A DNA stretch of 64,000 bases, from IMG/VR virus record IMGVR_UViG_3300020020_000028, positions 9,961-73,960 of that record; one strand, written 5' to 3'. This stretch comes from a virus. Each line of letters starts with the position of its first letter. Position 1 is the first letter of the stretch. A program made the translations under genes and the position numbers. The notes below the pieces were generated by a model that saw nothing but the letters and a program-made list of their open reading frames with translations, was not told the origin of the DNA and did no database searches. Positions 5,232-52,455 of this stretch are shown here, one piece after another.

Positions 5232-8200
5232 GCGTTCGGCTTCCTTCCGATGCGTGCTTTTACCTTGTTAAGATTAGCAATCTCTCTCAGGTCATCAGCA
5301 AACAACCGCCATGACATCTTCGCACTATCACCAGCACGTACCGATAATGGAGTCACCCTCAGTCGCGTCATCTCCGCAAGTGTTTCATTGATCGCTCGTT
5401 CAAACCCATTAGGCTGATTGACGATATCAGACTGCCAATACGCTTTAGAGTAATCGGAGATACCGTCGTCCTTCTGCAAGACGTTCATCTTCTGAACATA
5501 ACGAGACTGACCGGGCTGCTGATCGTTCTCCGTTTCCATGTACGTGTCACCAACATGTCGATAGAACATTGCCGACACTGGCCAACGTTTATGAACCTCT
5601 TCCTGCATCTCGGGCCGAACATAGCCACTCACACGGAAGAGACGCTTGTGTTCCTCTGGGGGCAGATTATCAATCTCTTTATGTTCCGCGAGTTGCGCCT
5701 CACGCGCGGCGTCAAATATCGCATGTGAGATCTCATGCGTCACGATCCCATTCGTGACGGCCATACGCTCATCGTATGAGTTACGAGCGTTGATCTCGAT
5801 CACACCAGTGCGTGGATTAAAGTGGCCTGCTTCTCGAAATTCAAGATCACCAACTTTGAATGCAGTCGGTTCTTTATCCACGACGTTGATAATTGCCGGA
5901 GGAATCCCCATTTCCTCAGCGAGTGTTTCCGCGCGTCGTGCAACGATGTCTTTATAGCGAACAGGAAAACCCGGTGGCAACGTTTCTACAGATGCGCCTG
6001 AAGGAGCACTGCCCCCGACTTCACCGGGTCTACCAGCGTGACCGAAGTTCCCTGAACCTTCGCCTCCGAGCGCCTTGAGATCTTCGACCATCGCAAACGC
6101 GACAAACACGCGATGAAACTGCCCAAGCACCTTGAGCCACGGCTTTTCCTCAACCCACGAGAAGGGCTGATCGCGCATCCACGCGGCCTTGATCCACTCA
6201 GGCTTGATGTCACCTGCGAACTGAAACGCGTCTTTCGGATTCGTGATGTAGGAATCGGGGCGCAGTGTCGCCCAGATCTCTTCGGGGATTTCTACTTGCA
6301 GAACGACGGGCTTGACTGCGAAGTCCGAACCGGCACTCCCGTGGTTCTCAGCCGCACTCTTGGCGTAGTCTTTCGCCTGCTGAAGATCCGTCGCGACATA
6401 GACGTTGCCTGCGACACTACCGGGATGCGCCTTGCCCGCGAATTTCGCTCGAATGCCATCCTTGAGGATGGAGTTCAGCGCACCGGATTCGGTGCCGTGG
6501 AAGGCTGTCCACTGGCCACGTTCATCGCGTGGCTGGCTCGGATCGAAAGCTAACGTCCTTACCCTCTTCAACTGCGAGGGAGACTTAATCAGGACAGTCG
6601 CTGGAATCTCACTCTGATTAAGTTCATCCAACGATTGAATCGCATCGTACCCGTGTCGAGCTAACACCTCACGGACAGCCGGAATGTACGCTACGTCTAA
6701 CGGGTTACTACCCCCGTACGGAGAAAAGTCTGAGACGCTAGGTACCTCTAGCCACCATCCCGGCCCATCCTGTCCTGAGGGCGTGAATGTGTACTTGACC
6801 CCCGCTTCATCGAGGAGTGGCAACATCCGTTTGATGTCTTCTTCGTTATGAAGACTAAACGGCTTCGAGACAGAGATCGCAATCTCTTGAAGGCTCCCTT
6901 CTCTTCCACTTCTCTCGTTCTCTTCTTTATACCAACGCGCCGCTTCGGGGTCTGGAGTAGTGAAAATCGGCAGTCGTAGCGTCTCAGGGATCGCTCCACC
7001 AATATAATGAGGTTTCGTCGTATCGAACCGTGTGTCGCCACCTCCGGTCCATCGACCATTCTCATCCCGAGGTTGACTCGGATCGAAACCTAGCCAGCGA
7101 GGATCTTCTTCGCGGCTTCGATCTCCATCGCTGTAGGTTCTCTGCCAGTCAATTTCCGCGCGAGCGCGATGAGTTGATCGAGTGTGGGAGCCTGTGTTTC
7201 GGATCCCGTAACGATAAGCTCCGGCTGCTTTGACATGAGGGTACTCAATGGTAACAGACTTGCCGTTCTTCAAATCGAAATACGCCAACTGCTTGGCTGC
7301 ACGCCCAAGCCTCTCGGCTTCCGCTGCGTCTTGCACAATCGTGCTGACATCCAGATAGGCCATGCCATCTTCGGGGTTATGCCAACCCCCGAGATAGTTG
7401 CCTGACTGACTCAGAAGATCGATGTTCTTGACCGTGTACTCCGCAAGTGCCACGACGGAGACATCCTTCGCCGGAAGAATTTTCTCGCGATCCTTGTGGA
7501 GACTCAGCGCAAAGCCCGTCTTCGGTTGTTCACCCGTCGCAGTGTGGTACGTGAATCCGCCGTCGGCTTGATGAATCGCTTCGAGGATGCCGCTTGGTGC
7601 GGGGAGAGAACCGCCCACCATGCCGGGGCGTCCAGCGTGGCCGAAGTTTCCTGAGCCTGCGCCACCGAGTGTGCTTAACGTCTTGTTCACCAACACGACG
7701 CTGTACAACACACGAGTGTTCTGCGCAAGTGCCCGCCAATCAATGCGATGAAAAAATTCTTTAGAAGGAGTACCGACACCAGTAATCCACTCAGGTGGAA
7801 TGGTGCCCTTTACCGCGAACGCATCGCCTTGATCCTCAGATCGTACGTTCGTAGCCCACCAGTCCCGAGGGATCTCAATTCTTAAAATGACGGGTTCTGT
7901 GTCATCGTTGACCTCTGCGGCATACTTCGCGTACGTATTCGCACTTGTTAGACTCTCCGTGAAGTACACAGACGCTGGGCGACCACCCATGTCCGCGCCT
8001 TGCTGACGTGCGTATTCATCGGCTCCTGTGCCGTGGCCTTTGAAGGGAGAGAGTCCGAATTGTTTGATCGAGGCTAGTGCCTCTGATTGCGTGCCGTGAA
8101 AAACAAGGTGTGGCCCACGGTATCCAACAGTTACACCATCACGATTACCATGAGTCTTCTGATCGTGCTCACCATGCAACGTACGCACGCGCGCCATCTG

Positions 8201-33500: not shown

Positions 33501-33686
33501 CTCGGATGTAATCCTGGCGGTGAAGTCGCGAGTTGGGACATCACCGATGGACCATCGGATCGGATTGCTCGCTACGAAAAGAATCGATTGTATTCGAAAA
33601 GAGAGATCGAGATGATCGAACGAGAACCAGAAGGTACAGTGATAAAAGAGTTGAGGGAGTGGGATGCCAAAGATCCGTTACATTGA
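27526..33686 (+). other. Second block of small hypothetical genes (includes HEFGH protein 28996-29427, 30357-30989, 31192-31578, 33073-33327)
   Basis: Coupled ORFs with RBSs; no confident functions. Confidence 0.65.
28290..28445 (+). pseudogene. Internally deleted paralog of the 21058-21243 gene
   Basis: MTWLDA(V/I)LGRKPKHEHRFGDWFLVERQE...CGFTEM in both copies. Confidence 0.6.
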
Positions 33687-34563
33687 TAAAAAGATCGGCG
33701 GCAAACGACTCGCCACGATTCTCAAAGCGAACCAGATCATTGCGGAGTACAACGCGCAGGGATTCCAACTGACGCTCCGGCAGTTATTCTACCAGTTTGT
33801 AAGCCGGGATATTATTCCGAACACGCAACGAGAATATACGCTGCTCGGTGCCACGATCAATGACGGTAGACTGTGTGGGCTCATCGATTGGAATGCGATT
33901 GTGGATCGTACGCGTGGTATTCGAAGTGTGGCGCACTGGACGGATCCGACAGAGATCGTGGCAGACGTGGCCAATCAGTTTCGGATCGACAAGTGGGCGA
34001 CGCAGAAGTTTCGTCCCGAAGTCTGGATTGAAAAAGATGCCGTGGCCGGAGTTGTGGAAGGCGTCTGCGAAGAACTCGATGTCCCGTATTTCTCATGTCG
34101 TGGCTACACGAGCCAGTCTGAGATGTGGGTAGGAGCACAGCGACTGAAGCGATACATGTCGGAACAGACGCCGCTCATTCTCCATTTTGGCGATCATGAT
34201 CCGAGTGGCAAAGACATGTCTCGCGATATCTATGATCGCATGGAATTGTTCATGGGCGGAGTGGAGTTCAATCGGCTGGCCTTGAACTGGGATCAGATCG
34301 AACGCTTCAATCCACCACCGAACCCGGCCAAGCTCACAGACTCGCGTGCAAAGGCGTACATCGCGGAATTTGGGGATGATAGTTGGGAACTTGATGCCCT
34401 GGAGCCGTCGGTGATCGTGGAATTGATTCGCAGCACGATCCTCAGTGTGCGTGATGAAGATGCGTGGAGCGAGAAGGTTGAGGAAGAAGATCGGCATCGC
34501 GATCTGTTGCAGAAAACATCTGACCGGTGGGATGATGTGGTGGAACTCCTCGAAGCGGAATAA
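33664..34563 (+). CDS. wHTH + TOPRIM protein (Topo VI-A/JetD-like)
   Basis: LTLRQLFYQFVS; PEVWIEKDA; HFGDHDPSG; WELDAL. Confidence 0.75.
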   Translation: MPKIRYIDKKIGGKRLATILKANQIIAEYNAQGFQLTLRQLFYQFVSRDIIPNTQREYTLLGATINDGRLCGLIDWNAIVDRTRGIRSVAHWTDPTEIVADVANQFRIDKWATQKFRPEVWIEKDAVAGVVEGVCEELDVPYFSCRGYTSQSEMWVGAQRLKRYMSEQTPLILHFGDHDPSGKDMSRDIYDRMELFMGGVEFNRLALNWDQIERFNPPPNPAKLTDSRAKAYIAEFGDDSWELDALEPSVIVELIRSTILSVRDEDAWSEKVEEEDRHRDLLQKTSDRWDDVVELLEAE

Positions 34564-38500: not shown

Positions 38501-38789
38501 GAGACACTCGCTCTGTGCGATAGGTGTCGGCCTCCAGTAGTCACATTCTTTCACGTATACGGGAGCTTGAAAATCGCTGCCGATGAAATCCGGAAAGCGA
38601 AACTCGGGGGCTTAAAGTGAACTGGTATGATGTGACGCTGACGCGAGGAGGGCAGATTATCAACCGTGGTTGGCAACTGGCCATGACCGAGAAAGATCTC
38701 ATCGAGCAAGCTCGCAAGAACGGGTTCAATATCGACATTCGTCTCATTGGGAGCGCACTCCCGCAATTTCAGACGCAAGAGATCCTTCA

Positions 38790-39410
38790 ATGACGTGGTT
38801 TACCTCTGATACCCACTTCGGACACGCGGCGATTCTAACGCATGGTCGCTACATCTTTGACAGTGTCGAAAATATGGATGCTGTGTTGATCAAGAATTGG
38901 AATGACCGCGTCGGCCTCCGCGATGATATCTATCATCTCGGGGACTTCAACTTCCGTTCGACGCGCACGACAGCGGAGTATCTTGGTGAATTGCGCGGAC
39001 GGATTCATCTTATCGAAGGCAATCATGATCCGAAGTACGCACTAAGATACCGTCAACTCTTTGCGAGCGTACAGCCAGTCAAGTATCTGAAGCTCGATGG
39101 AAAGCGCATCACGCTCTATCACTACGCACAACGTGTGTGGAGGGGTTCCAATCTCGGATCCTGGCACCTCTATGGACATAGCCACGGAGGGATCCCGGAT
39201 CTCGGACGTTCGATGGACGTGGGTGTCGATGCACAGAGCTTTGCGCCCATCGAGTTCGCACAGGTGCGAGAGGCATTGAAGGACAGGCCGTTTACGTATC
39301 ATCATCCGGACATGGAAATCGAGTGCGTGTGTGATGGTGGTCCGCAAGGTGAGGGCCTTGTGTCGATCCCTCATGCAGTGCATTGTCCGATGAGTAAGGA
39401 AGAGAGATAA
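38790..39410 (+). CDS. Calcineurin-like metallophosphoesterase
   Basis: SDTHFGH, HLGDF, GNHD, HY, GHSH, DVGVD. Confidence 0.9.
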   Translation: MTWFTSDTHFGHAAILTHGRYIFDSVENMDAVLIKNWNDRVGLRDDIYHLGDFNFRSTRTTAEYLGELRGRIHLIEGNHDPKYALRYRQLFASVQPVKYLKLDGKRITLYHYAQRVWRGSNLGSWHLYGHSHGGIPDLGRSMDVGVDAQSFAPIEFAQVREALKDRPFTYHHPDMEIECVCDGGPQGEGLVSIPHAVHCPMSKEER

Positions 39411-40571: not shown

Positions 40572-41090
40572 ATGGTTGAAAACACTGTAGAAGAATACGA
40601 CAAGCAATCGTGGGGTCGAGGTTTGTGGGATCACGAACCAGATCGTGTCGAAGGTGAACATGCGGGATTCCCGACACTCGCTCGTCGTGGTCCGATGGGT
40701 TCGTGGTGCGGCTACGTGGCTGTGCCTCCGGGGCACTACGATCACGGGATCTACTACGGAGAGGTCGATGGCGATCTCGATGTCCACGGGGGTCTGACGT
40801 ATTCAGGCTTGTGTCATGGTGCGATCTGCCATGTCCCGAAGCCCGGTGAACCCGATAACGTCTGGTGGTTTGGGTTTGACTGCGGGCACTATCGTGACAT
40901 CACGCCGGGGATGATGAAGTATCATTTCGGATCTGACGAGTATTCCACGTACAAGGATCTATCGTACGTGCAGGAAGAGATCAAGAAGCTCGCAGAGCAA
41001 CTCGCAGAGCGAGCGAAGTGGGTGCGCGTCGATGTACATGCGCTCGCTCAGCGGTTGAAGGAAAAATGGACACGGGTCGCTGTCGAGTAG
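40572..41090 (+). CDS. Conserved phage hypothetical protein
   Basis: WCGYVAVP, VHGGLTYS, WWFGFDCGH motifs. Confidence 0.7.
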   Translation: MVENTVEEYDKQSWGRGLWDHEPDRVEGEHAGFPTLARRGPMGSWCGYVAVPPGHYDHGIYYGEVDGDLDVHGGLTYSGLCHGAICHVPKPGEPDNVWWFGFDCGHYRDITPGMMKYHFGSDEYSTYKDLSYVQEEIKKLAEQLAERAKWVRVDVHALAQRLKEKWTRVAVE

Positions 41091-41202
41091 GTTATCATTG
41101 CCAATGAGGAGGTCGCGGGTTCGAATCCCGTCACATGCCGTAACAGGATGTGTAGCTCAGTGGTAGAGCGCTTAAACACCTACTTACGCTCTTTATCCGT
41201 GT
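41070..41202 (+). ncRNA. Y-RNA-like unit 1; cargo = permuted tRNA-Gly(GCC)-like
   Basis: ACACGG/CCGTGT stem, GGGTCG, GTTATC, CTTTATCC; cargo order anticodon loop (TTGCCAA), T arm, closed acceptor, D arm. Confidence 0.85.
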
Positions 41203-41371
41203 TATGTTCGAAACTCTGTGTTGCCGTTGCTGCGTGAGCATGTAAGAGACACGGATAGGGACCGCGTCACGGGCGGTTCCGATTTTATGACGTTGCAAGC
41301 CGTGATTACCCTGAGTCGCGCAAATCGTGAGGTTTGCTGGGTCTGTGGCCTATCGGCTTGGCGTCTCCAGT

Positions 41372-41513
41372 AAGACGTGGGTCGCTGTATTACGGTTCTC
41401 CTATGGGTCGCGGGTTCAAATCCCGTCATCGCGACGCCTAACAAGCTATGCGATGTAGCTCAGTTGGTTAGAGCAATAGATAAAAGTCCGTAAGCACCTC
41501 TTATCCGCGTCTT
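41372..41513 (+). ncRNA. Y-RNA-like unit 2; YrlA-type T-acceptor-D cargo
   Basis: AAGACGTGG/CCGCGTCTT stem; GGTTCAAATCC precedes TAGCTCAGTTGGTTAGAGC. Confidence 0.85.
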
Positions 41514-41535
41514 TGTTCTTTGACAACTTAAATCA

Positions 41536-41595
41536 GTCGGAGGCGCATAGTGCGTGATGATCACACGCAGTAGGGAAACCTACCCTCCGGCACCA
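41536..41595 (+). ncRNA. 60-nt mini tRNA-like RNA ending ACCA
   Basis: GTCGGAGG/CCTCCGGC stem + ACCA, hairpins TGCGTG/CACGCA and GTAGG-GAAA-CCTAC. Confidence 0.6.
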
Positions 41596-41600
41596 CTTAA

Positions 41601-41736
41601 TCCTCGGGTCGCATTGACATCGTTATCTCTTACCATACTCAAGAGGGTAGCTCAGTGGTAGAGCGTCCGATTTGTAATCGGAAGGTCGTGGGTTCGAATC
41701 CCACTCTAACGCGGTGTTGAATCACTTATCCGGGGA
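41601..41736 (+). ncRNA. Y-RNA-like unit 3; cargo = tRNA-Thr(TGT)-like permuted within the acceptor 3' strand
   Basis: Intact D, anticodon (TCCGA-TTTGTAA-TCGGA) and T arms; CTCTTACCA lies 5' of its partner AAGAG. Confidence 0.85.
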
Positions 41737-41749
41737 GTTTTACAATTTC

Positions 41750-41819
41750 CGATTCGGGTCGATCAGATAGCGTTATCCTTAAGAGATAAAAATGCTGTCT
41801 ACGTCACTTATCCGAATCG
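41750..41819 (+). ncRNA. Y-RNA-like unit 4; hairpin cargo with loop CTTAAGA
   Basis: CGATTCGG/CCGAATCG; TTATC-CTTAAGA-GATAA. Confidence 0.85.
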
Positions 41820-41822
41820 ATT

Positions 41823-41915
41823 TTTCCGGGGCGGTTGATATCAGAGTGCGAAAGCAACGCATAACGGCAGAAATGTCGGAGGACCCCGTCGCTAACTCGG
41901 GCGGGAACCCGGAAA
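41823..41915 (+). ncRNA. Unknown multibranch RNA with GAAA tetraloops
   Basis: TTTCCGGG/CCCGGAAA closing; TGC-GAAA-GCA, CGGCA-GAAA-TGTCG, CCCGTC/GGCGGG. Confidence 0.55.
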
Positions 41916-42036
41916 TGTGAGGTAACACAAAACCACTCGGTGCGCTCCCAACTATCGCTCTCTGGTGGAAAGTAGTGTTCGTAAGCCACGTGGGAATTAG
42001 TTCAGGCTAGGTTGCACGTGGGCCTCTTTTTGATCT

Positions 42037-42111
42037 GGGGCTATGCACCTCGCGAGAGGGGGCTGAATAAGGCGAAAGCCGGAGCGGGTGAAAATCCCGT
42101 AGGCTCCACCA
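42037..42111 (+). ncRNA. tRNA-Ala/tmRNA-TLD-like RNA with G3:U70 and ACCA
   Basis: GGGGCT...GCGGG-TGAAAAT-CCCGT-AGGCTCC-ACCA; no canonical D or anticodon arm. Confidence 0.65.
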
Positions 42112-42115
42112 GTCA

Positions 42116-42205
42116 GGAAGGCTGACCGAGCGGCATGGTGCCAGCTTGCTAAGCTGTGGCTTCGCAGAGATGCGATCAGGGGTTCGAGTCCCTTGCCTTC
42201 CGCCA
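42116..42205 (+). tRNA. tRNA-Ser(GCT)
   Basis: GGAAGGC/GCCTTCC-GCCA, CAGC-TTGCTAA-GCTG, long variable arm, GGTTCGAGTCC. Confidence 0.9.
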
Positions 42206-42210
42206 AAGTT

Positions 42211-42282
42211 TTCGACGGGTCGCTCGTGACAGGGTTATCACTCCTAATGATTACCCCCTGCACAATTCACTTATCCGTCGAA
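42211..42282 (+). ncRNA. Y-RNA-like unit 5; hairpin cargo with loop CTCCTAA
   Basis: TTCGACGG/CCGTCGAA; ATCA-CTCCTAA-TGAT. Confidence 0.85.
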
Positions 42283-42327
42283 CTCTCGGGGCTCTGCTCA
42301 AGGAGGTAGCATCCCCAATGATTTTGA

Positions 42328-42477
42328 ATCTCGGGTCGCAGTCGTAGAGTTATCCCAGGAACGAGTGCCCTTCGGGGCATGCGTGGTTCGAATCCCGCTC
42401 CTCTCGAATCAGTGAGAGGATGGCGAAACTGGCAGACGCGCTCGTATTTAGTTCTGCGGCGAATACTTATCCGAGAT
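42328..42477 (+). ncRNA. Y-RNA-like unit 6; cargo = permuted tRNA-Leu(CAG)-like
   Basis: CCCAGGA-ACGAG, variable arm TGCCC-TTCG-GGGCA, T arm, TCCTCTC/GAGAGGA acceptor, Leu-type D loop, CTCGT. Confidence 0.85.
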
Positions 42478-42485
42478 GTGTTTCT

Positions 42486-42600
42486 CCACGGGTCGCGGCT
42501 GTATGGTTATCATTGGTTGAAACTCTGGCCTAAGCCGAAAGGCGTCAAGCCGGAGGGAGGTTCGAATCCTCAATATCCCATACGCACACTTTATCCGTGG
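42486..42600 (+). ncRNA. Y-RNA-like unit 7; long stem + T-arm cargo
   Basis: CCACGG/CCGTGG; CTCTGGC/GCCGGAG; GAGG-TTCGAAT-CCTC. Confidence 0.8.
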
Positions 42601-42695
42601 GTTTGTAGGCAGATGAGCGCGATCTGCCGTCAGCCGGGAGAGACTACTCGTTGCGCTGGTTGCAACCATCAACGACGTTTCTCCCTTGCTGTTTC

Positions 42696-42788
42696 TCCGT
42701 GGGTCGCTGTTTGGAAGGTTATCTTTTTGCCAAAAAAAGGGAGTTGGGTGAAACCCCTGACACCCTTCTGACGATCTTTATCCACGGA
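42696..42788 (+). ncRNA. Y-RNA-like unit 8; cargo with TTGCCAA loop + short hairpin
   Basis: TCCGTGG/CCACGGA; TTT-TTGCCAA-AAA; GGG-TGAAA-CCC. Confidence 0.8.
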
Positions 42789-42793
42789 ACTTC

Positions 42794-42927
42794 TCAGCGG
42801 GTCGCCGGTGACGATTATCTTCTGTCGTAGGTTCGACTCCTACTCTGCTAGGCAACTAGTAGATAGCTCAGTTGGTAGAGCAAAGACGGTATCCACTCCG
42901 TTTCGTCGCTGACTCTTTATCCGCTGA
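42794..42927 (+). ncRNA. Y-RNA-like unit 9; YrlA-type cargo, acceptor closed by GCAA tetraloop
   Basis: TCAGCGG/CCGCTGA; GTAGG-TTCGACT-CCTAC; TCTGCTAG-GCAA-CTAGTAGA; D arm. Confidence 0.85.
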
Positions 42928-43017
42928 ATTTTTTTCAACTCAAGGCGTGGTGTTCTCTGAAAAGAGGCGCAGCTTCCGGAAGCTAGATCTGAAGTGACAG
43001 ATCTCTTGAGTATTTCT

Positions 43018-43085
43018 TTGACGGGTCGATGATTGAGGATTATCTTATAACGATAAAAATCCTTAGTCGATCACTTATCCGTCAA
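43018..43085 (+). ncRNA. Y-RNA-like unit 10; hairpin cargo with loop TTATAAC
   Basis: TTGACGG/CCGTCAA; GATTGAGGAT/ATCCTTAGTC. Confidence 0.85.
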
Positions 43086-43095
43086 TTTCCGATTC

Positions 43096-43158
43096 TTGAC
43101 GGGTCGAATGTGTAGGGTTATCTAGTTAATGATCCCTGCCGATTCACTTATCCGTCAA
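43096..43158 (+). ncRNA. Y-RNA-like unit 11; minimal cargo
   Basis: TTGACGG/CCGTCAA; GTAGGG/CCCTGC. Confidence 0.8.
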
Positions 43159-43172
43159 CTCAAGATCGATAC

Positions 43173-43243
43173 GTCCGGGTCGATAGGGTAGGGTTACCAT
43201 GATCACCAATCATCCACAGCCCTGCTTGACAACTTATCCGGAC
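43173..43243 (+). ncRNA. Y-RNA-like unit 12; hairpin cargo ATGAT-CACCA-ATCAT
   Basis: GTCCGG/CCGGAC; GGGTAGGGT/GCCCTGCTT. Confidence 0.8.
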
Positions 43244-43250
43244 ACTGTTA

Positions 43251-43364
43251 GTAGAGGGTCGCGGTTTTATCGGTTATCAAGGTTCGACTCCTTCCTCACC
43301 CAACTCTGTGGGTGGGGAAGCCTGAAATGGTCAGGCACTCCGATGAACAATCTTTATCCTCTAC
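43251..43364 (+). ncRNA. Y-RNA-like unit 13; T arm + 9-bp acceptor-like stem + D-like arm
   Basis: GTAGAGG/CCTCTAC; AAGG-TTCGACT-CCTT; CCTCACCCA/TGGGTGGGG; GCCTG/CAGGC. Confidence 0.8.
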
Positions 43365-43383: not shown

Positions 43384-45111
43384 ATGACAGTTAACTACGC
43401 GAAGCACTACAACAAGAAGCAGACGCCGCAGAGCGAGAAGATTCCGGGCGAGAAGCAGGTGGCGAACAACGCTGGAGGCTACGTCTACGAGGTAGACAAG
43501 TGGCAGCGTCTCGCACGGTTCTTGATCCTCGGCACGGACGGCGGCACGTACTACGTCAGCGAGCGAAAGCTCACGCGTGAGAATGCACAGGTTGTCGAAG
43601 CCTGTCTCGCGACGGACGGCGGACGTACGATTGCGGAGATCATCGAGATCTCTCAGACTGGTCGTGCGCCGAAGAACGATCAGGCGGTCTTTGCACTGGC
43701 GCTTGCAGCCTCCGTGCAGGTTCCGGACGCTAGTGGTGTGTCCGCAGAGTCGATCCGTAGCATGGCGCTCGATGCACTGCCGAAGGTCTGCCGGATCCCG
43801 ACGCATCTCTTTCAGTTCATGACGGCGATCAAGGCGATGCGTGGTAGCTCGCGTATGCTCCGTCGTGCACTCGGAGAGTGGTACTCGCAGTGGGACGCAA
43901 ATAAGCTCGCCTACGAACTGGTGAAGTACCAGTCGCGCGAGGGATGGGCGAATCGTGACGTGCTGCGTCTCGCGCACCCGAAGATGTCCGCAGAACATCA
44001 GGCGGTGGTGCGATGGGCTGTCTGCGGCCATGAAGCTGCGGCATCTCCTGGCCCTCGTGAGGTGAAGCGCGCGAAGGAAGATACGCGCACGTCGCGCATC
44101 TATCAGCCGGTTGCTGATGTGCCGAACATCATCGCGGCCTTCGAGTTGGCCAAGACGAAGCCGCCGGTTGAATTGCTTGTGCGTTTGATCCGCGAGCATG
44201 GTCTGACGCGAGAGATGCTGCCGACGGAGTGTCTGAACGAGGTCGCGGTATGGGAGGCATTGCTCGAAAAGATGCCGCTCACGGCGATGATCCGCAATCT
44301 CGGCAAGATGTCTTCGTTGGGGATCTTCGAGCCGTTGAAGTCCAGCGCATGGTCCAAGCACGTGGTCGAGAGGATCACCTCTCAGGAGAACTTGCGGAAG
44401 TCTCGCGTGCATCCGCTGTTCATCTTGAATGCGATGAAGACCTATGCGCAGGGCCACGGTGACAAGGGGTCGTTGAAGTGGACCCCGGCTGCGAAGATCG
44501 TGGACGCGCTCGATGCGGCGTTCTACGAAGCCTTCGGCAACGTGGAGCCCACCGGCAAAAACGTGATGCTGGCGCTCGACGTGAGTGGATCGATGGGTTC
44601 GCTCATCGGTGGCACGAGTCTGTCCTGCCGTGAGGCGTGTGCGGCACTTGCACTCGTCACGCAGGCTGTCGAAGACAACGTGCAGATCGTTGGGTTCACC
44701 AACGGCGGGTCTGTGGCTCGACGTTCGCAGTGGGGTGGATACCTGAGCGGGATTTCTCCGCTCAAGATCTCGAAGCGTCAGCGTCTCGATGACGTAGTGA
44801 AGTACATCGCTGGACTGAACTTCGGAGGCACGGACTGCGCCCTGCCGATGATCTACGCGGAGAGCGAGAAGCTCGATGTCGATGGGTTCGTGGTCTACAC
44901 GGACAACGAGACGTGGGCGGGAGATATCCACCCGTCGCAGGCGCTGCGAAGCTACCGAGCGAAGCAGAACAAGCCGGAGGCGGCACAGGTAGTCGTGGGC
45001 ATGACGGCGAGTGGATTCACGATTGCTTCTCCTGATGATCCTAGAACACTTGATGTGGTAGGCTTCGATCTCGCCACTCCGACGGCGATTTCGGCGTTTA
45101 TCAAAGGGTAA
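43384..45111 (+). CDS. rsr: Ro60/TROVE-vWA RNA-binding protein
   Basis: QVANNAGGYVY, RLARFLILGTDGGTYY, KYQSREGW, MPLTAMIRNLGKM, LALDVSGSM (MIDAS), YTDNETW, DVVGFD. Confidence 0.95.
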   Translation: MTVNYAKHYNKKQTPQSEKIPGEKQVANNAGGYVYEVDKWQRLARFLILGTDGGTYYVSERKLTRENAQVVEACLATDGGRTIAEIIEISQTGRAPKNDQAVFALALAASVQVPDASGVSAESIRSMALDALPKVCRIPTHLFQFMTAIKAMRGSSRMLRRALGEWYSQWDANKLAYELVKYQSREGWANRDVLRLAHPKMSAEHQAVVRWAVCGHEAAASPGPREVKRAKEDTRTSRIYQPVADVPNIIAAFELAKTKPPVELLVRLIREHGLTREMLPTECLNEVAVWEALLEKMPLTAMIRNLGKMSSLGIFEPLKSSAWSKHVVERITSQENLRKSRVHPLFILNAMKTYAQGHGDKGSLKWTPAAKIVDALDAAFYEAFGNVEPTGKNVMLALDVSGSMGSLIGGTSLSCREACAALALVTQAVEDNVQIVGFTNGGSVARRSQWGGYLSGISPLKISKRQRLDDVVKYIAGLNFGGTDCALPMIYAESEKLDVDGFVVYTDNETWAGDIHPSQALRSYRAKQNKPEAAQVVVGMTASGFTIASPDDPRTLDVVGFDLATPTAISAFIKG

Positions 45112-45181: not shown

Positions 45182-45257
45182 TGGCCGGTAGCTCAGTTGG
45201 TAGAGCGCACGGCTGTTAACCGTGTGGTCGCAAGTTCGAATCTTGCTCGGCCAGCCA
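45182..45257 (+). tRNA. tRNA-Asn(GTT)
   Basis: 76-nt cloverleaf, CACGG-CTGTTAA-CCGTG, ends GCCA. Confidence 0.95.
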
Positions 45258-45982: not shown

Positions 45983-46774
45983 ATGCAACAAACCAAAGAC
46001 ATGGCGGAGCGGAACACGATTCTTCGCGTTCCTGCCGGTAGTACTCTCCACGGGTTGCATATCCCCGGCACAGACGATCAGGACGAGGTCGGTGTCTGTA
46101 TCGAGGATATTCAATCCGCGATTGGATTCTCGGAGTTCGAGCAATTCATTTACCGCACGGCTGCTGAACGTGAAGGTAAGCACGATGCGCCGAGTCAGGC
46201 TGGCGATCTTGATCTGACCATCTTCAGTCTGCGAAAATTCTTGCGTCTTGCGATGCAGGGCAATCCCCAGATTCTGCAATGCTTGTTCGTGCCTCAATCT
46301 CTGTGCCTACAACGTGATTCACGTGGCGCGCAGTTACAGGAGATGGCGCCGTTGATCGTGAGTCGTCAAGCGGGTGCTCGGTATCTTGGGTACCTTGAGG
46401 CGCAACGGCAACGACTCCTCGGAGAACGGGGTCAGAAGAAAACGAATCGTCCGGAACTCGAAGCCAAACACGGCTTCGATACTAAGTACGCGATGCACAT
46501 CTTGCGCCTGGGTTTTCAAGGTGTGGAATTGATGTCCACCGGTCGTCTCACGTTGCCGATGAACGAAGAGGATCGAAAGTTCACCTACGCTGTTCGTTGC
46601 GGTGAAATTCCGTTACAAGATGCACTGACCAAAGCCGGGGAACTGGAACGTCAGATCAAAGATCTACTCCACGACGCACCAATTCCCGCACAACCCGCGC
46701 GTGAAGAAATCGAAGCGTGGATGGTATCGATGTATCTGGAAAATTGGAAGGCGCGTGAAACGGTTCATGCCTGA
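45983..46774 (+). CDS. Pol-beta-superfamily nucleotidyltransferase (RlaP-like)
   Basis: GSTLHGL...DDQDEVGV, KFLRLAMQGNP, DTKYAMHILRL. Confidence 0.8.
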   Translation: MQQTKDMAERNTILRVPAGSTLHGLHIPGTDDQDEVGVCIEDIQSAIGFSEFEQFIYRTAAEREGKHDAPSQAGDLDLTIFSLRKFLRLAMQGNPQILQCLFVPQSLCLQRDSRGAQLQEMAPLIVSRQAGARYLGYLEAQRQRLLGERGQKKTNRPELEAKHGFDTKYAMHILRLGFQGVELMSTGRLTLPMNEEDRKFTYAVRCGEIPLQDALTKAGELERQIKDLLHDAPIPAQPAREEIEAWMVSMYLENWKARETVHA

Positions 46775-48878
46775 CCTTCCTCCCGGTACCGGGCTTCCAC
46801 CTACAGCCCTAGACATCCTCTTCGGCTACGCGGCTGAGACAGCGTCTGAGGCCCCCAAACTGGCCCCGAAGCCTCAGCCCTCCCCCGGCTCAGAACCTCC
46901 TGTCCTGAGCCAGCCTAGCCAGCCAGACGGCCCTTCAGAGCCTTCTGTTCTAGACATCTTCCTCGGGCCTGTCTCCGTGGGTCCTCCCTCCCCTCGGGCT
47001 TCGATCCCGGTTGCTGAATGGAGGCAACAGGAGCCTCCGTGTCTCGATGGTATCGATGATATCGCATTGAATTTTGAAACCGACGGATTGGATTGGAGTA
47101 AAGGACATCGACCAATCGGAGTCACGGTGGGGACGCTCGACGGATTGATGAAACGATTCCTTCCCTTCAGATTCGCGGGTGGAAATCTCGATGAAGAAGT
47201 CGTGAAGCGATGGGCGGATCGAGAACTGCGAGGGAAGAATATCGTCAATGCCCGTACGAAGTTCGAAGTTCACATGGCTCGCGAGTGGGGCATCGATCTC
47301 GAAGAACGTGGCAATACTGTCTCGGATGTGCAACTGTGGGCCGCACTCATCGATGATCATCGGAAGCGATTCAATCTCGATTTGTTGATGGAAGACTTCT
47401 GCAATGAGAAAGGCCCACCACGTGTCGATGAAACACGCATGGCAACCTACCATGCGGGGAGCGTCGGCCTCCGCGCAGAATATCAAGTAGAGGCTATCGC
47501 TCGGTTACGTGACGAGATGTGGCCGATGATGGATGATCAAGATCTTCATGCCGTGAGGCAACTAGAAGATGATGTGATCTATCCACTCTGCGAGATGGAA
47601 AAGAATGGATCACTGATTGACGTGGAACAACTCCATGTCATGAGCCAGGAATTCAAATCCATCTACGGGCGTCTGATGATCGAGATGTCGGAGGAATTAG
47701 GATTCGCCTTCGCACATACGAATAAAGGATGGTCGAAGGTCTTTGACCATCTGCACCTCACGCCCTCTGATAGCTATGATGAAGAATTTCTGTCCTCGGT
47801 TGATCATCCCACAGTGAGAAAGGGCTATCTCGCAGCCCAATACGCATCCCTCAACTCCAAGAGCTTTGCACCCTATCTCGAACAGATTGATTCAGAAGGT
47901 ATTCTTCGTTACGACATCAATCAATTGCGGGGTGAAAAAGGTGGGACCGTCAGTGGGCGGTTCTCTATCGGCTACGTGCAACAGGTGCCGAACCACGATA
48001 ATCATCATGCGGCCTTCGGTGATCAAAGTATCAATCCTGATGATTGTCCGGGCATCTGTCCGCTGTTTCCACGTCGATTATTCCGGAGTTTGACCGGAGA
48101 GTATCTCGAAGCCGATGCGAGTCAGATCGAGTACCGGCTGTTCGCGCATCACGCGAACAACAAAGAAGTGATCGACGCGTACGCACAAGACCCTCGGCTC
48201 TCCTTTCATAAAATGACGTGGAACATGATGAAGGTCTACAAGCCTGACATGCTCTACAGTCATCAAAAGAATTTCAACTTCGCCAAGATGTACGGCGCCC
48301 GTTCAGTGAAGCTCGCGATCATGATGGGCTTCATTACGGAAGCGGAGGGCGCAGCCATTCGGAAGGCGAAGGCCTGGAAAGATCCACGACTCGCGCAGAT
48401 CCAACAGATCGAAGCCGCCTACAAGCGGATGATGCCAGAAGCCGATGCCCTGCTGGATAAAGCCTCCCACCTCGCAATGTCTGAGTGCGACGAAACGTGT
48501 TTGAATGATGATGGGAGTATCAAAAGACATCTCGTGGCGATCCACAAGCAGTTCCCGCATCGTGGATACGTCAAAACGTTGTTAGGGAGACGGAGTCGAT
48601 TTCCCTCGAATTACAAAACGTATATCGGTTTGAACCGTGTGATTCAAGGCACGGCTGCCGACATCATGAAGCAGAAGCTCGTGGAGTTGCATCGGGCGCG
48701 TAAGCATACCGGGCTGCTATTGCGGTTGACGGTGCACGATGCGGTCGCTGGTGATTGTCAGATGCGAGAGACGAAGGCAAGAGTACAGGAGATTCTCAAT
48801 CATCAGTCGTTTCCGGAACTGAAGGTGCCGATCTTGTGGGGAACGAAGACGGGTCCGAATTGGGCGGAGTGTCGATAA
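46767..48878 (+). CDS. polA: Family A DNA polymerase
   Basis: TVSGRFS, EADASQIEYR (motif A), KNFNFAKMYG (B), TVHDA (C), NRVIQGTAADIMK. Confidence 0.9.
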   Translation: MPDLPPGTGLPPTALDILFGYAAETASEAPKLAPKPQPSPGSEPPVLSQPSQPDGPSEPSVLDIFLGPVSVGPPSPRASIPVAEWRQQEPPCLDGIDDIALNFETDGLDWSKGHRPIGVTVGTLDGLMKRFLPFRFAGGNLDEEVVKRWADRELRGKNIVNARTKFEVHMAREWGIDLEERGNTVSDVQLWAALIDDHRKRFNLDLLMEDFCNEKGPPRVDETRMATYHAGSVGLRAEYQVEAIARLRDEMWPMMDDQDLHAVRQLEDDVIYPLCEMEKNGSLIDVEQLHVMSQEFKSIYGRLMIEMSEELGFAFAHTNKGWSKVFDHLHLTPSDSYDEEFLSSVDHPTVRKGYLAAQYASLNSKSFAPYLEQIDSEGILRYDINQLRGEKGGTVSGRFSIGYVQQVPNHDNHHAAFGDQSINPDDCPGICPLFPRRLFRSLTGEYLEADASQIEYRLFAHHANNKEVIDAYAQDPRLSFHKMTWNMMKVYKPDMLYSHQKNFNFAKMYGARSVKLAIMMGFITEAEGAAIRKAKAWKDPRLAQIQQIEAAYKRMMPEADALLDKASHLAMSECDETCLNDDGSIKRHLVAIHKQFPHRGYVKTLLGRRSRFPSNYKTYIGLNRVIQGTAADIMKQKLVELHRARKHTGLLLRLTVHDAVAGDCQMRETKARVQEILNHQSFPELKVPILWGTKTGPNWAECR

Positions 48879-50256: not shown

Positions 50257-52455
50257 ATGGCGATGAAGTTGACAAAGGCAGAACGTTTGTTGAGACAGGC
50301 GCAGCGCGAAGAGGAGGCTGCGAAGCGTGCGTCTACGCCAGAAGTAAAGTCGGTTGAAAAACAGATCGAGGCCACAGAGAAGAAGGTCAAGGCTATCAAG
50401 GCGAAGATCGAGAAGGAATCAAAGCCTGTACGCCCGGTCATTGTGTTGCCTCCCGTACCGATCATCGAATGGCACGGCGCGTATGATCAGAGTTGGAAGG
50501 GCTTCATCACCGACGAAAGTTTCGCCCACCCTGCCAAGGCATCACGCGCACTCCTCGGTAAGATCTTCGATCATCTCTTTTCCATCGGAGCACTCTCACG
50601 AGGAGGGAGTGTCATTGATCCCTTCGGAGGCATCGGGACCACGGGGATCATCGGCGCATGGCGTGCGTGCGAGGTGACGTGCTGTGAACTAGAGCCTCGT
50701 TTTTTCGAGTTAGCCAAGGCAAACTTCGCCATGCACGCTGAGAACCTCGAACACATGGGGTTTCCTCAGCCGAGGATTGTCAATGGGGATAGTCGCAAGT
50801 TGCGGCAGCATATTTGTCGAGCGGATAGTGTGGTGAGTAGTCCTCCGTACGCCGAAGGACTCGGTCACGGGGGCACGCCAACAGTCGGAGGGGGCAAGGC
50901 CGGAGACAAGGTGCTCGATGCGATGCAAGACGGGTATGGAGAGACAACCGGGCAATTGACGGGCATGACTGAGGGTGAGGTCGATGCCGTGGTGAGTAGT
51001 CCTCCGTACGCCGAGATCGCAACCGGTGCCGGTGGACTTAACACCAAACCGGCCGCAGAGGGTCAGCAAGGCGGACGCTCTGCGAGTGCGGCGAGTCAAG
51101 ACACGGATCAACGGTACGGAGTAACTGAAGGTCAACTCTCACGGTTGCAGACAGGGACCGTAGAAGATTCGCTACCGGACGCAGACTTTGACGGTGAAAC
51201 ATACGAACGAGATCGTGATCATTCGAGACTGAAAGCACAATTAGATAGTGTGTTTGCTGTGATGAAAGATCACAATTGGCACACGTTATCGGAAATATCC
51301 GCACTGACCGGGGCTCCAGAGCAAAGTGTTGGCGCACGATTGCGAGATCTCCGAAAAGAAAAGTTCGGAGGTCACGTTATCGAACGTCAGTATATCGAAG
51401 CCGGGTTGTGGCATTATCGATTCCCATCACAGGCTGATGTCGTCATCTCCAGTCCTCCATACGAAGCCGCGATCTCCGAACGTGGTGGGCGTCAGAGAGT
51501 GATCGAACCTCGATGCGACGAGAACGGCAATCCTTATCCTCAAGAAATGGATCTCAAGCCGTACGGAGACACTGAAGGTCAACTCGGATCGATGCAGACA
51601 GAAGGCGTCGATGCGTTGATTTCATCTCCTCCATATAGCGCAAGCGGTCTAGGATCGTCTCCGGCCTCTGAGGGTCCGAACGGGCGACCCACGGACAACA
51701 AAGGTGCGTCGCAGCCTCTGGATCAATACGGAGAAACCGAAGGGCAGTTGAATCACATTCCGAAGGGAGATATTGATGCGGTGATTTCTTCACCTCCCTA
51801 CTCCGAACAGCAACAGGGAGGAGGTATTGCCATTCATGGTACTCCTCAGCAACAAGTGTATGGAGACGCATGTAAATCTCCAGCAGGATATCAAGCGCAA
51901 GGCAATTCAGAGGGTCAACTCGGAGACATGGCCGCACAGAACATCGACGCACTCGTCAGCAGTCCTCCCTTCGGTTCTGGAGACTCCGCTAGTGCGCAGT
52001 CGATGGTCAAGCGTGATGATAAATCCGCACAATGGGTGAAGGCGAACGTCGGGAGCGCGGGCACCGAAGGATACGGCACTTCAGATGGTCAACTCGCGCA
52101 GATGCCCTCCAAAGAGGAGTCCGATACCTTCTGGACTGCCGCACGAGACATCGTCAAAGAGTGTTACGACGTTTTGAAGCCCGGAGGACACGCCGCATGG
52201 ATTGTCAAAGCCTTTGTCCGGGATAAACAGATCGTAGACTTCCCCGGTGACTGGCGGAAGCTCTGTGAGTACGTGGGGTTCGAGACACTCACGGAAGTGC
52301 GCGCCATGCTCGTGAAAAAGAACGAGTACGTAGACATCTTCGGTGAAGAACAGATCGATACGAAGGAACGTAAGAGTTTCTTCCGGCGTCTCGCGGAGAA
52401 GAATGGGAGCCCGAAGATCGACTTCGAGGTCGTGTGGATCATGAGGAAGCCATGA
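50257..52455 (+). CDS. Amino (N4C/N6A) DNA methyltransferase with repeated SPPY modules and inserted wHTH
   Basis: HPAK, DPFGGIGTTG, 6x SSPP(Y/F), ECYDVLKPGG. Confidence 0.8.
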   Translation: MAMKLTKAERLLRQAQREEEAAKRASTPEVKSVEKQIEATEKKVKAIKAKIEKESKPVRPVIVLPPVPIIEWHGAYDQSWKGFITDESFAHPAKASRALLGKIFDHLFSIGALSRGGSVIDPFGGIGTTGIIGAWRACEVTCCELEPRFFELAKANFAMHAENLEHMGFPQPRIVNGDSRKLRQHICRADSVVSSPPYAEGLGHGGTPTVGGGKAGDKVLDAMQDGYGETTGQLTGMTEGEVDAVVSSPPYAEIATGAGGLNTKPAAEGQQGGRSASAASQDTDQRYGVTEGQLSRLQTGTVEDSLPDADFDGETYERDRDHSRLKAQLDSVFAVMKDHNWHTLSEISALTGAPEQSVGARLRDLRKEKFGGHVIERQYIEAGLWHYRFPSQADVVISSPPYEAAISERGGRQRVIEPRCDENGNPYPQEMDLKPYGDTEGQLGSMQTEGVDALISSPPYSASGLGSSPASEGPNGRPTDNKGASQPLDQYGETEGQLNHIPKGDIDAVISSPPYSEQQQGGGIAIHGTPQQQVYGDACKSPAGYQAQGNSEGQLGDMAAQNIDALVSSPPFGSGDSASAQSMVKRDDKSAQWVKANVGSAGTEGYGTSDGQLAQMPSKEESDTFWTAARDIVKECYDVLKPGGHAAWIVKAFVRDKQIVDFPGDWRKLCEYVGFETLTEVRAMLVKKNEYVDIFGEEQIDTKERKSFFRRLAEKNGSPKIDFEVVWIMRKP

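What the first reader, a model, noticed from the sequence alone, without database searches (positions are those of the whole stretch)
41070..42477. Three cargos are near-complete tRNAs circularly permuted at different positions
Seen: cutting after TTAT and 4-5 nt before the 3' stem strand, then joining the cargo ends, restores cloverleaves. Unit 1: CTT+CA gives the anticodon stem CUUCA/UGAGG around UU-GCC-AA (Gly; break about 29/30). Unit 3: TC+CTCTTACCA completes an acceptor stem with AAGAGGG plus encoded ACCA (Thr UGU; break about 67/68). Unit 6: CTCGT+CCCAGGA gives a 5-bp stem and 7-nt CAG loop with a Leu-type long variable arm (break about 31/32). YrlA modules lack the anticodon loop, so these differ. 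Known: permuted tRNA genes matured through circular intermediates occur in some algae and archaea. Inference: the Ro stem may hold the ends for excision and ligation, or the RNAs may mimic nicked tRNAs. Caveat: identity defects (A1-U72 in Thr, G73 and C33 in Leu, a bulge in the Gly acceptor) favour mimics over charged tRNAs.
Basis: partly seen in the sequence, partly recalled or inferred. Interest (0 to 1): 0.85.

Follow-up and report, generated by a model that had tools for sequence, protein, structure and literature searches.

The report
Phage Ro60 RNAs displaying whole permuted tRNAs
Upstream of a soil phage's Ro60 gene lie 13 small Y-type RNAs, and at least two of the three flagged ones carry an almost complete tRNA shape, anticodon loop included, wired in rearranged order onto a Ro60-binding handle; this extends a known kind of tRNA mimic and is most likely not a source of working tRNAs.

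Summary
The sequence observation holds.

That test is weak for joins on the anticodon side. A control unit with no anticodon hairpin gave 308 calls with 27 different anticodon strings. I therefore used a rule with fixed positions, plus related loci.

- **Unit 1: robust.** It has a 5-bp anticodon stem whose 5' strand is split at 29/30, and a UUGCCAA loop. The same design occurs in 34 of 62 YrlA-type cores near viral and metagenome Ro60 genes (shuffles give 0.6). It covaries, and mycobacteriophage Y RNAs have it too.
- **Unit 3: robust.** It is a whole tRNA body with an encoded ACCA. Its acceptor 3' strand is split at 67/68. Rhizobium phages carry a homologue with compensatory changes.
- **Unit 6: partly.** The Leu-type class II body is real, but the CAG loop depends on the chosen cut.

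The anticodon differs between near-identical bodies, so "Gly" and "Thr" are nominal labels. The best reading is Ro60-tethered full-length tRNA mimics. I found no bulge-helix-bulge motif, no RtcB and no RNA ligase, and no RNA data exist. YrlA as a permuted tRNA mimic is already published, so this is a new variant of a known kind.

The scan's first readers had already noted this same stretch; their notes are not independent evidence.

The parts
41069..43364 (+). Array of 13 Y-RNA-like units. Each has a 5' handle (..GGGTCG.. then GGTTATC), a variable cargo, and a 3' handle (..CTTATCC..).
   Evidence: Handle scan: 14 hits, all here on the + strand; shuffles give a mean of 0.14. Sub-threshold Rfam YrlA matches on units 1, 2 and 9. 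RNAfold pairs the two ends of every unit.
41069..41203 (+). Unit 1: handle plus a class I tRNA mimic. Cargo 41096-41173 runs CA, loop UUGCCAA, UGAGG, variable loop, T arm, closed acceptor stem, D arm, G26, CUU. The anticodon stem's 5' strand is split at 29/30.
   Evidence: ARAGORN calls Gly(gcc) after the join. The fixed-position rule gives k=3, 5 bp, U33 and R37. The cargo aligns over its full length, in the same permuted order, with Y RNAs of phages Sparky and Asterius. The enforced structure folds at -35.4 kcal/mol against -42.9 for the free fold.
41601..41736 (+). Unit 3: handle plus a tRNA permuted in the acceptor 3' strand (67/68). Cargo 41627-41706 runs CUCUU-ACCA, a 5-nt spacer, then nt 1-67 with complete D, anticodon (UUUGUAA loop) and T arms.
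   Evidence: Rfam tRNA 56.8 bits over model positions 6-65. ARAGORN calls Thr(tgt) at every productive join. A descriptor search finds the acceptor complement upstream. Homologue in Rhizobium phages TM30 and Y65 with compensatory changes.
42328..42477 (+). Unit 6: handle plus a class II (Leu-type D arm, long variable arm) tRNA mimic. Cargo 42354-42445. The anticodon stem CUCGU/ACGAG is formed by the two cargo ends. CCCAGGA lies 5' of it. The T stem has a bulged U.
Evidence: The enforced structure folds at -54.0 against -56.1 kcal/mol. Analogous class II units occur in TM30 and Y65. No sequence homologue was found.
43384..45111 (+). Ro60/Rsr gene (575 aa).
   Evidence: Pfam TROVE 7.9e-50 and vWA_Ro60 4.1e-55. 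PHROG 850 RNA-binding protein. At most about 53% identity to any relative found.
42116..42205 (+). Genuine tRNA-Ser(GCU), embedded in the array between units 4 and 5.
   Evidence: ARAGORN; Rfam tRNA 44.9 bits.
45182..45257 (+). Genuine tRNA-Asn(GUU), just after the Ro60 gene.
   Evidence: ARAGORN; Rfam tRNA 70 bits.
45983..46774 (+). RlaP-type nucleotidyltransferase, a family linked to RNA repair.
   Evidence: Pfam PF10127 8.3e-26. PHROG 388. A relative also lies downstream of Ro60 in L070, L027, L062 and L046.

Best explanation
Units 1, 3 and 6 are Y RNAs of the YrlA kind, encoded with ten others directly upstream of the phage's Ro60 gene.

Each unit is one chain. Its two ends pair to form the Ro60-binding handle. 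Its middle folds into an L-shaped tRNA mimic.

The mimic is a circular permutation of a tRNA. The natural 5' and 3' ends are joined by a loop, and in unit 3 that loop still reads ACCA plus a 5-nt spacer. The new ends sit at a nick in one helical arm, and the handle leaves through that nick as the third arm of a three-way junction.
- In unit 1 the nick is in the 5' strand of the anticodon stem. Three base pairs come from the cargo's 3' end (CUU). Two come from the nucleotides just after the conserved GGUUAUC. Together they rebuild a 5-bp stem capped by a canonical 7-nt loop.
- In unit 3 the same trick is applied to the acceptor stem's 3' strand.
- In unit 6 the two ends form the whole anticodon stem, and seven unpaired nucleotides sit beside it.

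Inferred, not shown: the RNAs stay attached to their handles and act as Ro60-tethered tRNA look-alikes. They would engage proteins that read the tRNA elbow and the anticodon loop, with the anticodon triplet acting as an exchangeable specificity element. Units with a 7-bp acceptor stem are probably opened by RNase P, as shown for M. smegmatis YrlA. They are not decoding tRNAs.
For: Context:
- The Ro60 gene follows directly.
- All 13 handles are on one strand in one 2.3-kb block.
- Rfam YrlA matches units 1, 2 and 9 at E 1e-5 to 1e-7.

Split anticodon arm:
- The position of nt 39-43 is fixed by the T arm and a 4-5-nt variable loop. Under that rule, 34 of 62 distinct cores near viral and metagenome Ro60 genes have 5 bp plus U33 plus R37. 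Shuffles give a mean of 0.63 and a maximum of 3.
- Shifting the register by 2 or more positions gives 0-3 of 42.
- 28 of the 34 are split, with 1-3 bp coming from the 3' end. A38 is present in 26 of those 28.
- Every one of the five stem pairs shows several Watson-Crick pair types.
- Sparky (UCC-AUUGCAA-GGG plus CU) and Asterius (CUC-AUUGCAA-GAG plus CU) covary with unit 1.

Conserved body, variable anticodon:
- L040 and L043 have bodies 95% identical but loops AUUCGGA and UUUGGGA.
- Unit 1's body is 87% identical to Sparky's, which carries UGC.
- TM30 and Y65 class II units differ by GUA against GUG on a Leu-type body.

Unit 3:
- The homologue in Rhizobium phages keeps ACCA, the spacer and UC|UAAC.
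- It shows compensatory changes A4:U69 to C4:G69 and G51:C63 to C51:G63.

Other:
- NCCA occupies acceptor-loop positions 2-4 in 9 of 62 cores, against about 1 expected.
- The enforced cloverleaf-on-handle folds lie 2-7.5 kcal/mol above the free minimum-energy fold, and the handle stems still form.
- Literature: YrlA folds as a tRNA. M. smegmatis YrlA is cut by RNase P, receives CCA, and both halves stay bound to Rsr.
Against: - There is no RNA evidence at all. Only soil-metagenome DNA runs hold the sequence.
- Ro60 binding is inferred from position and from resemblance of the handle.
- All units score below Rfam's YrlA gathering threshold (38-46 bits against 69).
- Unit 6's loop has C33, and RNAfold partly pairs its neighbourhood.
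- In unit 3 the conserved UC of GGUUAUC could pair with G6-G7 in place of the UC that follows the T arm. That would give a purely local acceptor hairpin.
- My core descriptor is strict, so the percentages describe the cores it can find.
- The effector proteins are unknown.
Confidence: 0.7

Rival explanations
1. Permuted tRNA precursors. The handle holds the two ends together, a nuclease removes it, a ligase such as RtcB joins nt 29/30 (or 67/68), and RNase P opens the acceptor loop. The result would be working tRNA-Gly, tRNA-Thr and tRNA-Leu for the phage.
For: - Re-joined sequences pass ARAGORN.
- Unit 3 encodes ACCA at the right place.
- All tRNA-like units have 7-bp acceptor stems.
- The phage has only two ordinary tRNAs.
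- Wang 2018 raised this possibility for YrlA in general.
- Ro60 loci in bacteria often sit next to rtcB.
Against: - The junction has a 3-nt and a 4-nt linker directly opposite each other. This is a three-way junction, not the bulge-helix-bulge used in algae and archaea.
- No RtcB or RNA-ligase family hit in the record, which is about 70% complete.
- The anticodon changes between near-identical bodies, and a Leu-type body carries GUA or GUG. That is not how decoding tRNAs evolve.
- Defects that I read from the sequence against textbook identity rules: A1-U72 and A2-U71 in 'Thr', a G.G mismatch in unit 1's acceptor stem, and C33 plus a bulged T stem in unit 6.
- In the Rhizobium phage homologues of unit 3 the anticodon arm is degenerate while the ACCA loop is kept.
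Confidence: 0.04
2. Two-piece tRNAs on a handle. RNase P cuts 5' of nt 1. The spacer is trimmed back to, or rebuilt as, CCA. The nicked RNA is held together by the handle and by Ro60, has a free CCA end and an anticodon loop, and engages aminoacyl-tRNA synthetases, EF-Tu or the ribosome.
For: - M. smegmatis YrlA is cut exactly this way in vivo, gains CCA, and both halves co-precipitate with Rsr.
- Unit 3 and its Rhizobium phage homologues conserve ACCA plus a short spacer.
- NCCA is enriched in acceptor loops, 9 of 62.
- An RlaP nucleotidyltransferase lies downstream.
Against: - Units 1 and 6 have no encoded CCA.
- The acceptor identity pairs are atypical.
- Chen 2014 found no cleavage of Salmonella YrlA or of Yrn1 and judged aminoacylation unlikely to be general.
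- There are no data for this phage.
Confidence: 0.15
3. Fossils. The anticodon loops and the ACCA are leftovers from the tandem tRNA genes that gave rise to these modules, and only the elbow (D and T arms) matters.
For: - The published origin model is dimeric tRNA transcripts.
- D and T arm sequences are the most conserved parts.
- Unit 6's loop is non-canonical.
- The anticodon arm decays in the Rhizobium phage homologues of unit 3.
Against: - U33, R37 and A38 and a 5-bp stem are maintained across very divergent loci, with compensatory changes, while the triplet itself varies. Drift would erase the stem and the U33/R37 pattern first.
- Minimal units keep only the hairpin: UUAUC, a 7-nt loop, GAUAA in units 4 and 10.
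Confidence: 0.08
4. Misread ordinary tandem tRNA genes or pseudogenes, unrelated to Ro60.
For: - Dimeric tRNAs can imitate YrlA (Chen 2014).
- My descriptor also picks up true tRNA clusters in bacterial loci.
- Real tRNAs are interspersed in the array.
Against: - ARAGORN calls no tRNA at units 1, 3 or 6.
- Each unit is bracketed by a complementary handle with conserved motifs, seen 13 times here and nowhere else in 64 kb.
- The same arrangement recurs next to Ro60 genes in unrelated phages.
Confidence: 0.02

Closest known systems
YrlA (Y RNA-like A; Rfam RF02553), Ro60/Rsr-bound tRNA mimics of bacteria and phages (Chen 2014; Wang 2018, PDB 6CU1)
   Same: - Encoded next to the Ro60 gene.
- The two ends pair into a handle.
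- Units 1 and 6 have the order T arm, closed acceptor stem, D arm.
- The tRNA tertiary-contact nucleotides are present.
- YrlA has already been described as resembling a circularly permuted tRNA derived from dimeric tRNA transcripts.
   Different: - Salmonella YrlA and the Rfam model have no anticodon loop.
- Here, and in about half of the cores surveyed, a canonical 7-nt loop is rebuilt on a split stem.
- Unit 3 uses a different permutation point, in the acceptor stem, and keeps ACCA.
- There are 13 units in tandem, where one to a few are described.
- Scores fall below Rfam's threshold.
Circularly permuted tRNA genes of Cyanidioschyzon merolae and other algae, and of Thermofilum (Soma 2007; Maruyama 2010; Chan 2011, as cited)
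   Same: The 3' part lies upstream of the 5' part. The natural ends are joined by a short linker. The new ends pair with each other.
   Different: - Those carry a bulge-helix-bulge motif, are cut by the splicing endonuclease, ligated into a circle, and become functional tRNAs.
- Here there is no such motif and no such enzymes are found.
- The anticodon here does not match the identity of the body.
- The paired ends here form a Ro60 handle.
Deinococcus radiodurans Yrn1
   Same: As in unit 3, the D-like arm comes before the T arm, an 'anticodon arm' lies between them, and the handle is on the acceptor side.
   Different: Yrn1 has a 6-nt loop, no variable arm, no clear D arm, and no acceptor hairpin or CCA. 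Unit 3 is a complete tRNA body with an ACCA-capped acceptor hairpin.
M. smegmatis YrlA (cleaved by RNase P, with CCA added)
   Same: A 7-bp acceptor stem. It is the precedent for opening the closed acceptor loop while the RNA stays on Rsr.
   Different: There the CA of the CCA tail is added after cleavage, whereas unit 3 encodes ACCA. Whether that RNA has the split anticodon arm could not be checked here.

Membership tests
YrlA / bacterial Y RNA | Encoded within a few kb of a Ro60 (TROVE) gene | tested here: met
   The array ends 20 nt before the Ro60 start codon at 43384.
YrlA / bacterial Y RNA | 5' and 3' ends pair into a stem carrying the conserved Ro60-binding motif (GNCGAAN0-1G on the 5' strand) | tested here: inconclusive
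   All 13 units have covarying terminal stems around GGGUCG / UUAUCC. The exact GUCGAA occurs only in unit 11. The others read GUCGC or GUCGAU.
YrlA / bacterial Y RNA | Effector module in the order T arm, closed acceptor-like stem, D arm | tested here: met
   Met for units 1 and 6. Not met for unit 3, whose order is acceptor hairpin, D arm, anticodon arm, T arm.
YrlA / bacterial Y RNA | Reaches Rfam RF02553's gathering score (69 bits) | tested here: not met
   Unit 1 scores 38.0 bits, unit 2 43.2 and unit 9 45.6. Units 3 and 6 give no match.
YrlA / bacterial Y RNA | Bound by Ro60 in vivo | not testable with these tools
   No RNA or protein data; no RNA run is listed.
Circularly permuted tRNA genes (algal/archaeal type) | 3' half upstream of 5' half, with the natural termini joined by a short linker | tested here: met
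   The linkers are 7-9 nt loops, and unit 3's begins with ACCA.
Circularly permuted tRNA genes (algal/archaeal type) | Bulge-helix-bulge motif at the paired new termini | tested here: not met
   The enforced folds show a 3-nt and a 4-nt linker directly opposite each other at a three-way junction, with no 4-bp helix between two 3-nt bulges.
Circularly permuted tRNA genes (algal/archaeal type) | Processing enzymes available (splicing endonuclease, RtcB-type ligase) | tested here: not met
   No RtcB (PF01139) or RNA_ligase (PF09414) hit in the 73,960-bp record. The record is about 70% complete, host enzymes are unknown, and the endonuclease was not searched.
Circularly permuted tRNA genes (algal/archaeal type) | Matured into a functional, chargeable tRNA | not testable with these tools
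   Indirect evidence is against it: the anticodon varies on near-identical bodies.
Canonical tRNA (Rfam RF00005 / ARAGORN) | Contiguous cloverleaf with a paired 5'/3' acceptor stem in genomic order | tested here: not met
   ARAGORN makes no call at units 1, 3 or 6. Rfam matches only positions 6-65 of the model in unit 3.

The most novel reading that the evidence does not exclude
Ro60-linked Y RNA arrays are programmable panels of full-length tRNA look-alikes. A conserved handle and elbow body displays interchangeable, canonical anticodon loops, and in rare cases a CCA end. This would let a phage intercept or recruit anticodon-specific host factors, for example tRNA-cleaving defence nucleases, and hand them or their products to Ro60 and an exonuclease. 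The split-stem three-way junction would be the general plug by which any tRNA arm is mounted on Ro60.
Probability: 0.3. Interest if true: 0.85.

Novelty: new variant of a known kind. Interest (0 to 1): 0.6.

Why it matters
The function of the tRNA-like half of bacterial and phage Y RNAs is still unknown.

Many of these modules rebuild a canonical anticodon arm, and the triplet changes while the body stays fixed. If so, the partner being sought probably reads the anticodon loop, not only the elbow. That narrows the search to synthetases, anticodon-loop modification enzymes and anticodon nucleases. It also makes the question testable with defined RNAs.

It also shows that one handle can take a tRNA through either of its two long arms. 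That is a simple structural rule for finding further Y RNAs that current models miss.

Tried and rejected
- **Sequencing runs**: no RNA holder is listed.
- **Homologues of unit 6**: nothing useful in GenBank phages or in the fetched loci. L067 shares only a 19-nt stretch of D arm.
- **Closer relatives of the phage**: Ro60 identity is at most about 53% in viral, metagenome and genome collections.
- **MAFFT alignment A1** of 21 unit-1-type modules put gaps inconsistently in the anticodon loops. I therefore did the pair counts by position in a script rather than with the count of structure pairs, and built no covariance model.
- **Isoacceptor identity from BLAST**: unit 3's best true-tRNA hits are Lys and Asn genes, so the body carries no Thr signal.
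- **Two reviews** (PMC10870794, PMC6047535) are not held. I cannot exclude that the split anticodon arm is drawn somewhere in the literature or in supplements.
- **My first constraint script** was faulty and was redone.
- **Promoter and terminator scan**: counts are at shuffle level.
Full report
**What is there**

The window comes from a 73,960-bp viral contig from soil, about 70% complete. ORF 43384-45111 is a Ro60/Rsr protein with TROVE and Ro60-vWA domains.

The 2.3 kb directly upstream (41069-43364, + strand) holds 13 units of one design. Each has a terminal stem built from ..GGGUCG.. and ..CUUAUCC.., a second stem, the motif GGUUAUC, a variable cargo, and the way back.

A scan for this handle finds 14 hits. 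All are in this block and on this strand. Shuffled windows give 0.14.

Rfam's YrlA model matches units 1, 2 and 9 at E 1e-5 to 1e-7, but below its gathering score. A genuine tRNA-Ser sits inside the array and a tRNA-Asn follows the Ro60 gene. An RlaP-type nucleotidyltransferase lies downstream.

**Checking the observation**

This test proves less than it seems. A YrlA-type module already contains a T arm, an acceptor stem, a D arm and two complementary end strands. Many arbitrary joins therefore close a loop. With all cut pairs tried:
- The control unit 2 gives 308 calls with 27 anticodon strings.
- Unit 3 gives 266 calls, all tgt.
- Unit 1 gives gcc in 133 of 342 calls.
- Unit 6 gives cag in only 3 of 69 calls. 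Its commonest call comes from the 3' linker.

**A test without free choices**

I fixed nt 39-43 by the T arm and a 4- or 5-nt variable loop, and took the 7 nt before them as the loop. I then asked whether a 5-bp stem forms with its 5' strand supplied by k nucleotides after the D arm and 5-k nucleotides before the loop.

- Among 62 distinct cores near viral and metagenome Ro60 genes, 34 have 5 bp plus U33 plus R37. Shuffles give a mean of 0.63 and a maximum of 3.
- Register shifts of two or more give 0-3 of 42.
- 28 of the 34 are split, mostly with k = 2 or 3. A38 occurs in 26 of the 28.
- Each of the five pairs shows several Watson-Crick types.
- Unit 1 is a typical member (k = 3, break 29/30).
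- Its cargo aligns over its full length, in the same order, with the RNAs upstream of Ro60 in Mycobacterium phages Sparky and Asterius. There the local hairpins (UCC-AUUGCAA-GGG and CUC-AUUGCAA-GAG) plus CU from the 3' end covary with unit 1's CA-UUGCCAA-UG plus CUU.
- The same arm occurs in bacterial metagenome-assembled contigs that carry the GGUUAUC motif.

The anticodon arm is therefore real and widespread. It is not peculiar to this phage.

**Unit 3**

Unit 3 is a different permutation. The D arm, a perfect anticodon arm (loop UUUGUAA), the variable loop and the T arm are contiguous (Rfam tRNA, 56.8 bits).

The complement of nt 1-5 lies upstream. It is followed by ACCA and a 5-nt spacer. 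The UC after the T arm completes the stem, so the break is at 67/68.

A descriptor search over all fetched loci finds this topology only here and in Rhizobium phages of the TM30/Y65 group. There the ACCA loop and the UC|UAAC exit are conserved. Two stems carry compensatory changes. The anticodon arm, however, is degenerate.

In both unit 1 and unit 3 the split strand runs from the cargo's 3' end to the cargo's 5' start. It is one junction design applied to two different arms.

**Unit 6**

The body is clearly class II. It has a Leu-type D arm, a 4-bp variable arm and a 7-bp closed acceptor stem, though the T stem has a bulged U.

The anticodon stem is made entirely by the two ends, as in ordinary YrlA. 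The seven nucleotides beside it (CCCAGGA) include the C of the conserved motif and have C33. Cores of this k = 5 type mostly lack U33.

Analogous class II units in TM30 and Y65 do have canonical loops (CUGUAGA, CUGUGGA) at the same place, but on a Leu-type body. The match between CAG and Leu may therefore be chance, roughly 1 in 10.

**What the labels mean**

The bodies form one family whatever the anticodon.
- L040 and L043 are 95% identical but carry UCG and UGG.
- Unit 1's body is 87% identical to Sparky's, which carries UGC.

The triplet varies on a conserved body while U33, R37 and A38 and the stem are kept. This argues against decoding tRNAs and against mere fossils. It points to the loop as an exchangeable recognition element.

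Minimal units 4 and 10 keep only a hairpin in which the UUAUC of the conserved GGUUAUC motif is itself the 5' strand. Unit 5 has a shorter version, AUCA/UGAU.

**Mechanism**

Shown:
- The sequence architecture, its conservation and its covariation.
- Thermodynamic plausibility. The enforced folds lie 2-7.5 kcal/mol above the free minimum-energy fold, and the handles stay intact.

Taken from the literature:
- YrlA folds like tRNA.
- M. smegmatis YrlA is cut by RNase P and receives CCA while bound to Rsr.
- Y RNAs tether Ro60 to partners such as PNPase, and a Thermus phage Ro60 does so with the host enzyme.

Inferred:
- These units are Ro60-tethered, full-length tRNA mimics.
- Those with 7-bp acceptor stems are probably opened by RNase P. 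NCCA is enriched in acceptor loops, 9 of 62.
- Their partners read the anticodon loop.

Excision and ligation into tRNAs is unlikely. There is no bulge-helix-bulge motif. No RtcB or RNA ligase is found in the record. The loops do not match the identity of their bodies.

**Novelty**

Three points are already published:
- YrlA resembles a circularly permuted tRNA.
- It probably arose from dimeric tRNA transcripts.
- It might be processed like algal permuted tRNAs.

As far as the papers I could read show, these points are new:
- the rebuilt canonical anticodon arm on a split stem;
- the acceptor-side permutation with encoded ACCA;
- a 13-unit array combining both.

The same papers state that YrlA lacks an anticodon loop. 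Two reviews were not available, so prior mention cannot be excluded.

**Earlier notes of this scan**

The scan's first readers had already noted this array and its anticodon-like loops on the same DNA. Those notes are not independent evidence.

Noticed in passing
window 41750-41819, 42211-42282, 43018-43085: Minimal units 4 and 10 carry only a hairpin in which the scaffold UUAUC pairs with GAUAA around a canonical 7-nt loop (CUUAAGA, UUAUAAC). Unit 5 has AUCA/UGAU around CUCCUAA. These are bare anticodon-arm mimics on the Ro60 handle.
   Followed up: partly
window 42696-42788 (unit 8): A U-run, GCC, then an A-run after the scaffold. The register is ambiguous because of the homopolymers. One register gives the same UUGCCAA loop as unit 1.
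   Followed up: no
window 42037-42115: A structured-looking stretch just before tRNA-Ser. Rfam gives a very weak tmRNA match at 42059-42111 (8.7 bits, E 4.1). An earlier first-reader note calls it an anticodon-less tRNA-sized RNA. I did not test it.
   Followed up: no
window 41204-41371, 41514-41600, 41820-42036, 42602-42695, 42928-43017: Spacers between units that lack the handle motif. 41258-41280 is a terminator-like GC hairpin followed by a U-rich tail. Their function is unknown.
   Followed up: no
L072 3290-4440 (Rhizobium phage RHph_TM30) and L155: An unannotated array of Y-like units upstream of the TROVE gene, with a different handle motif (GUUGCG ... UAUCUC). It contains counterparts of all three types discussed here (split anticodon arm, acceptor-side permutation with ACCA, class II) and is flanked by real tRNA genes.
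   Followed up: partly
L070 5072-5924: An IMG/VR contig with a 7-unit array using the same GGGUCG / UUAUCC handle as the window. An RlaP homologue lies downstream of its Ro60 gene.
   Followed up: partly
L040 about 5324-5419 and L043 about 5200-5295: Two modules with 95% identical bodies and identical anticodon stems but different loops (AUUCGGA and UUUGGGA). This looks like a switch of the displayed triplet between close relatives.
   Followed up: partly
acceptor loops of Ro60-linked cores, e.g. L004 about 5861-5878, L016, L025, L057, L072 about 4340-4365: The loop closing the acceptor stem begins with NCCA in 9 of 62 cores, against about 1 expected. In L004 the loop is exactly ACCA.
   Followed up: partly
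window 33664-34563, 38670-39410, 46701-48878, 50257-52455: Neighbouring genes: a PHROG 'DNA topoisomerase' family protein, a phosphoesterase, a family A DNA polymerase and a DNA methyltransferase. This is an ordinary phage replication module.
   Followed up: no
L156-L235: The nearest cellular Ro60 relatives (46-53% identity) are in Longimicrobium/Gemmatimonadota and Myxococcota contigs from metagenome-assembled genomes. This is a weak hint about the host range of this phage group.
   Followed up: no
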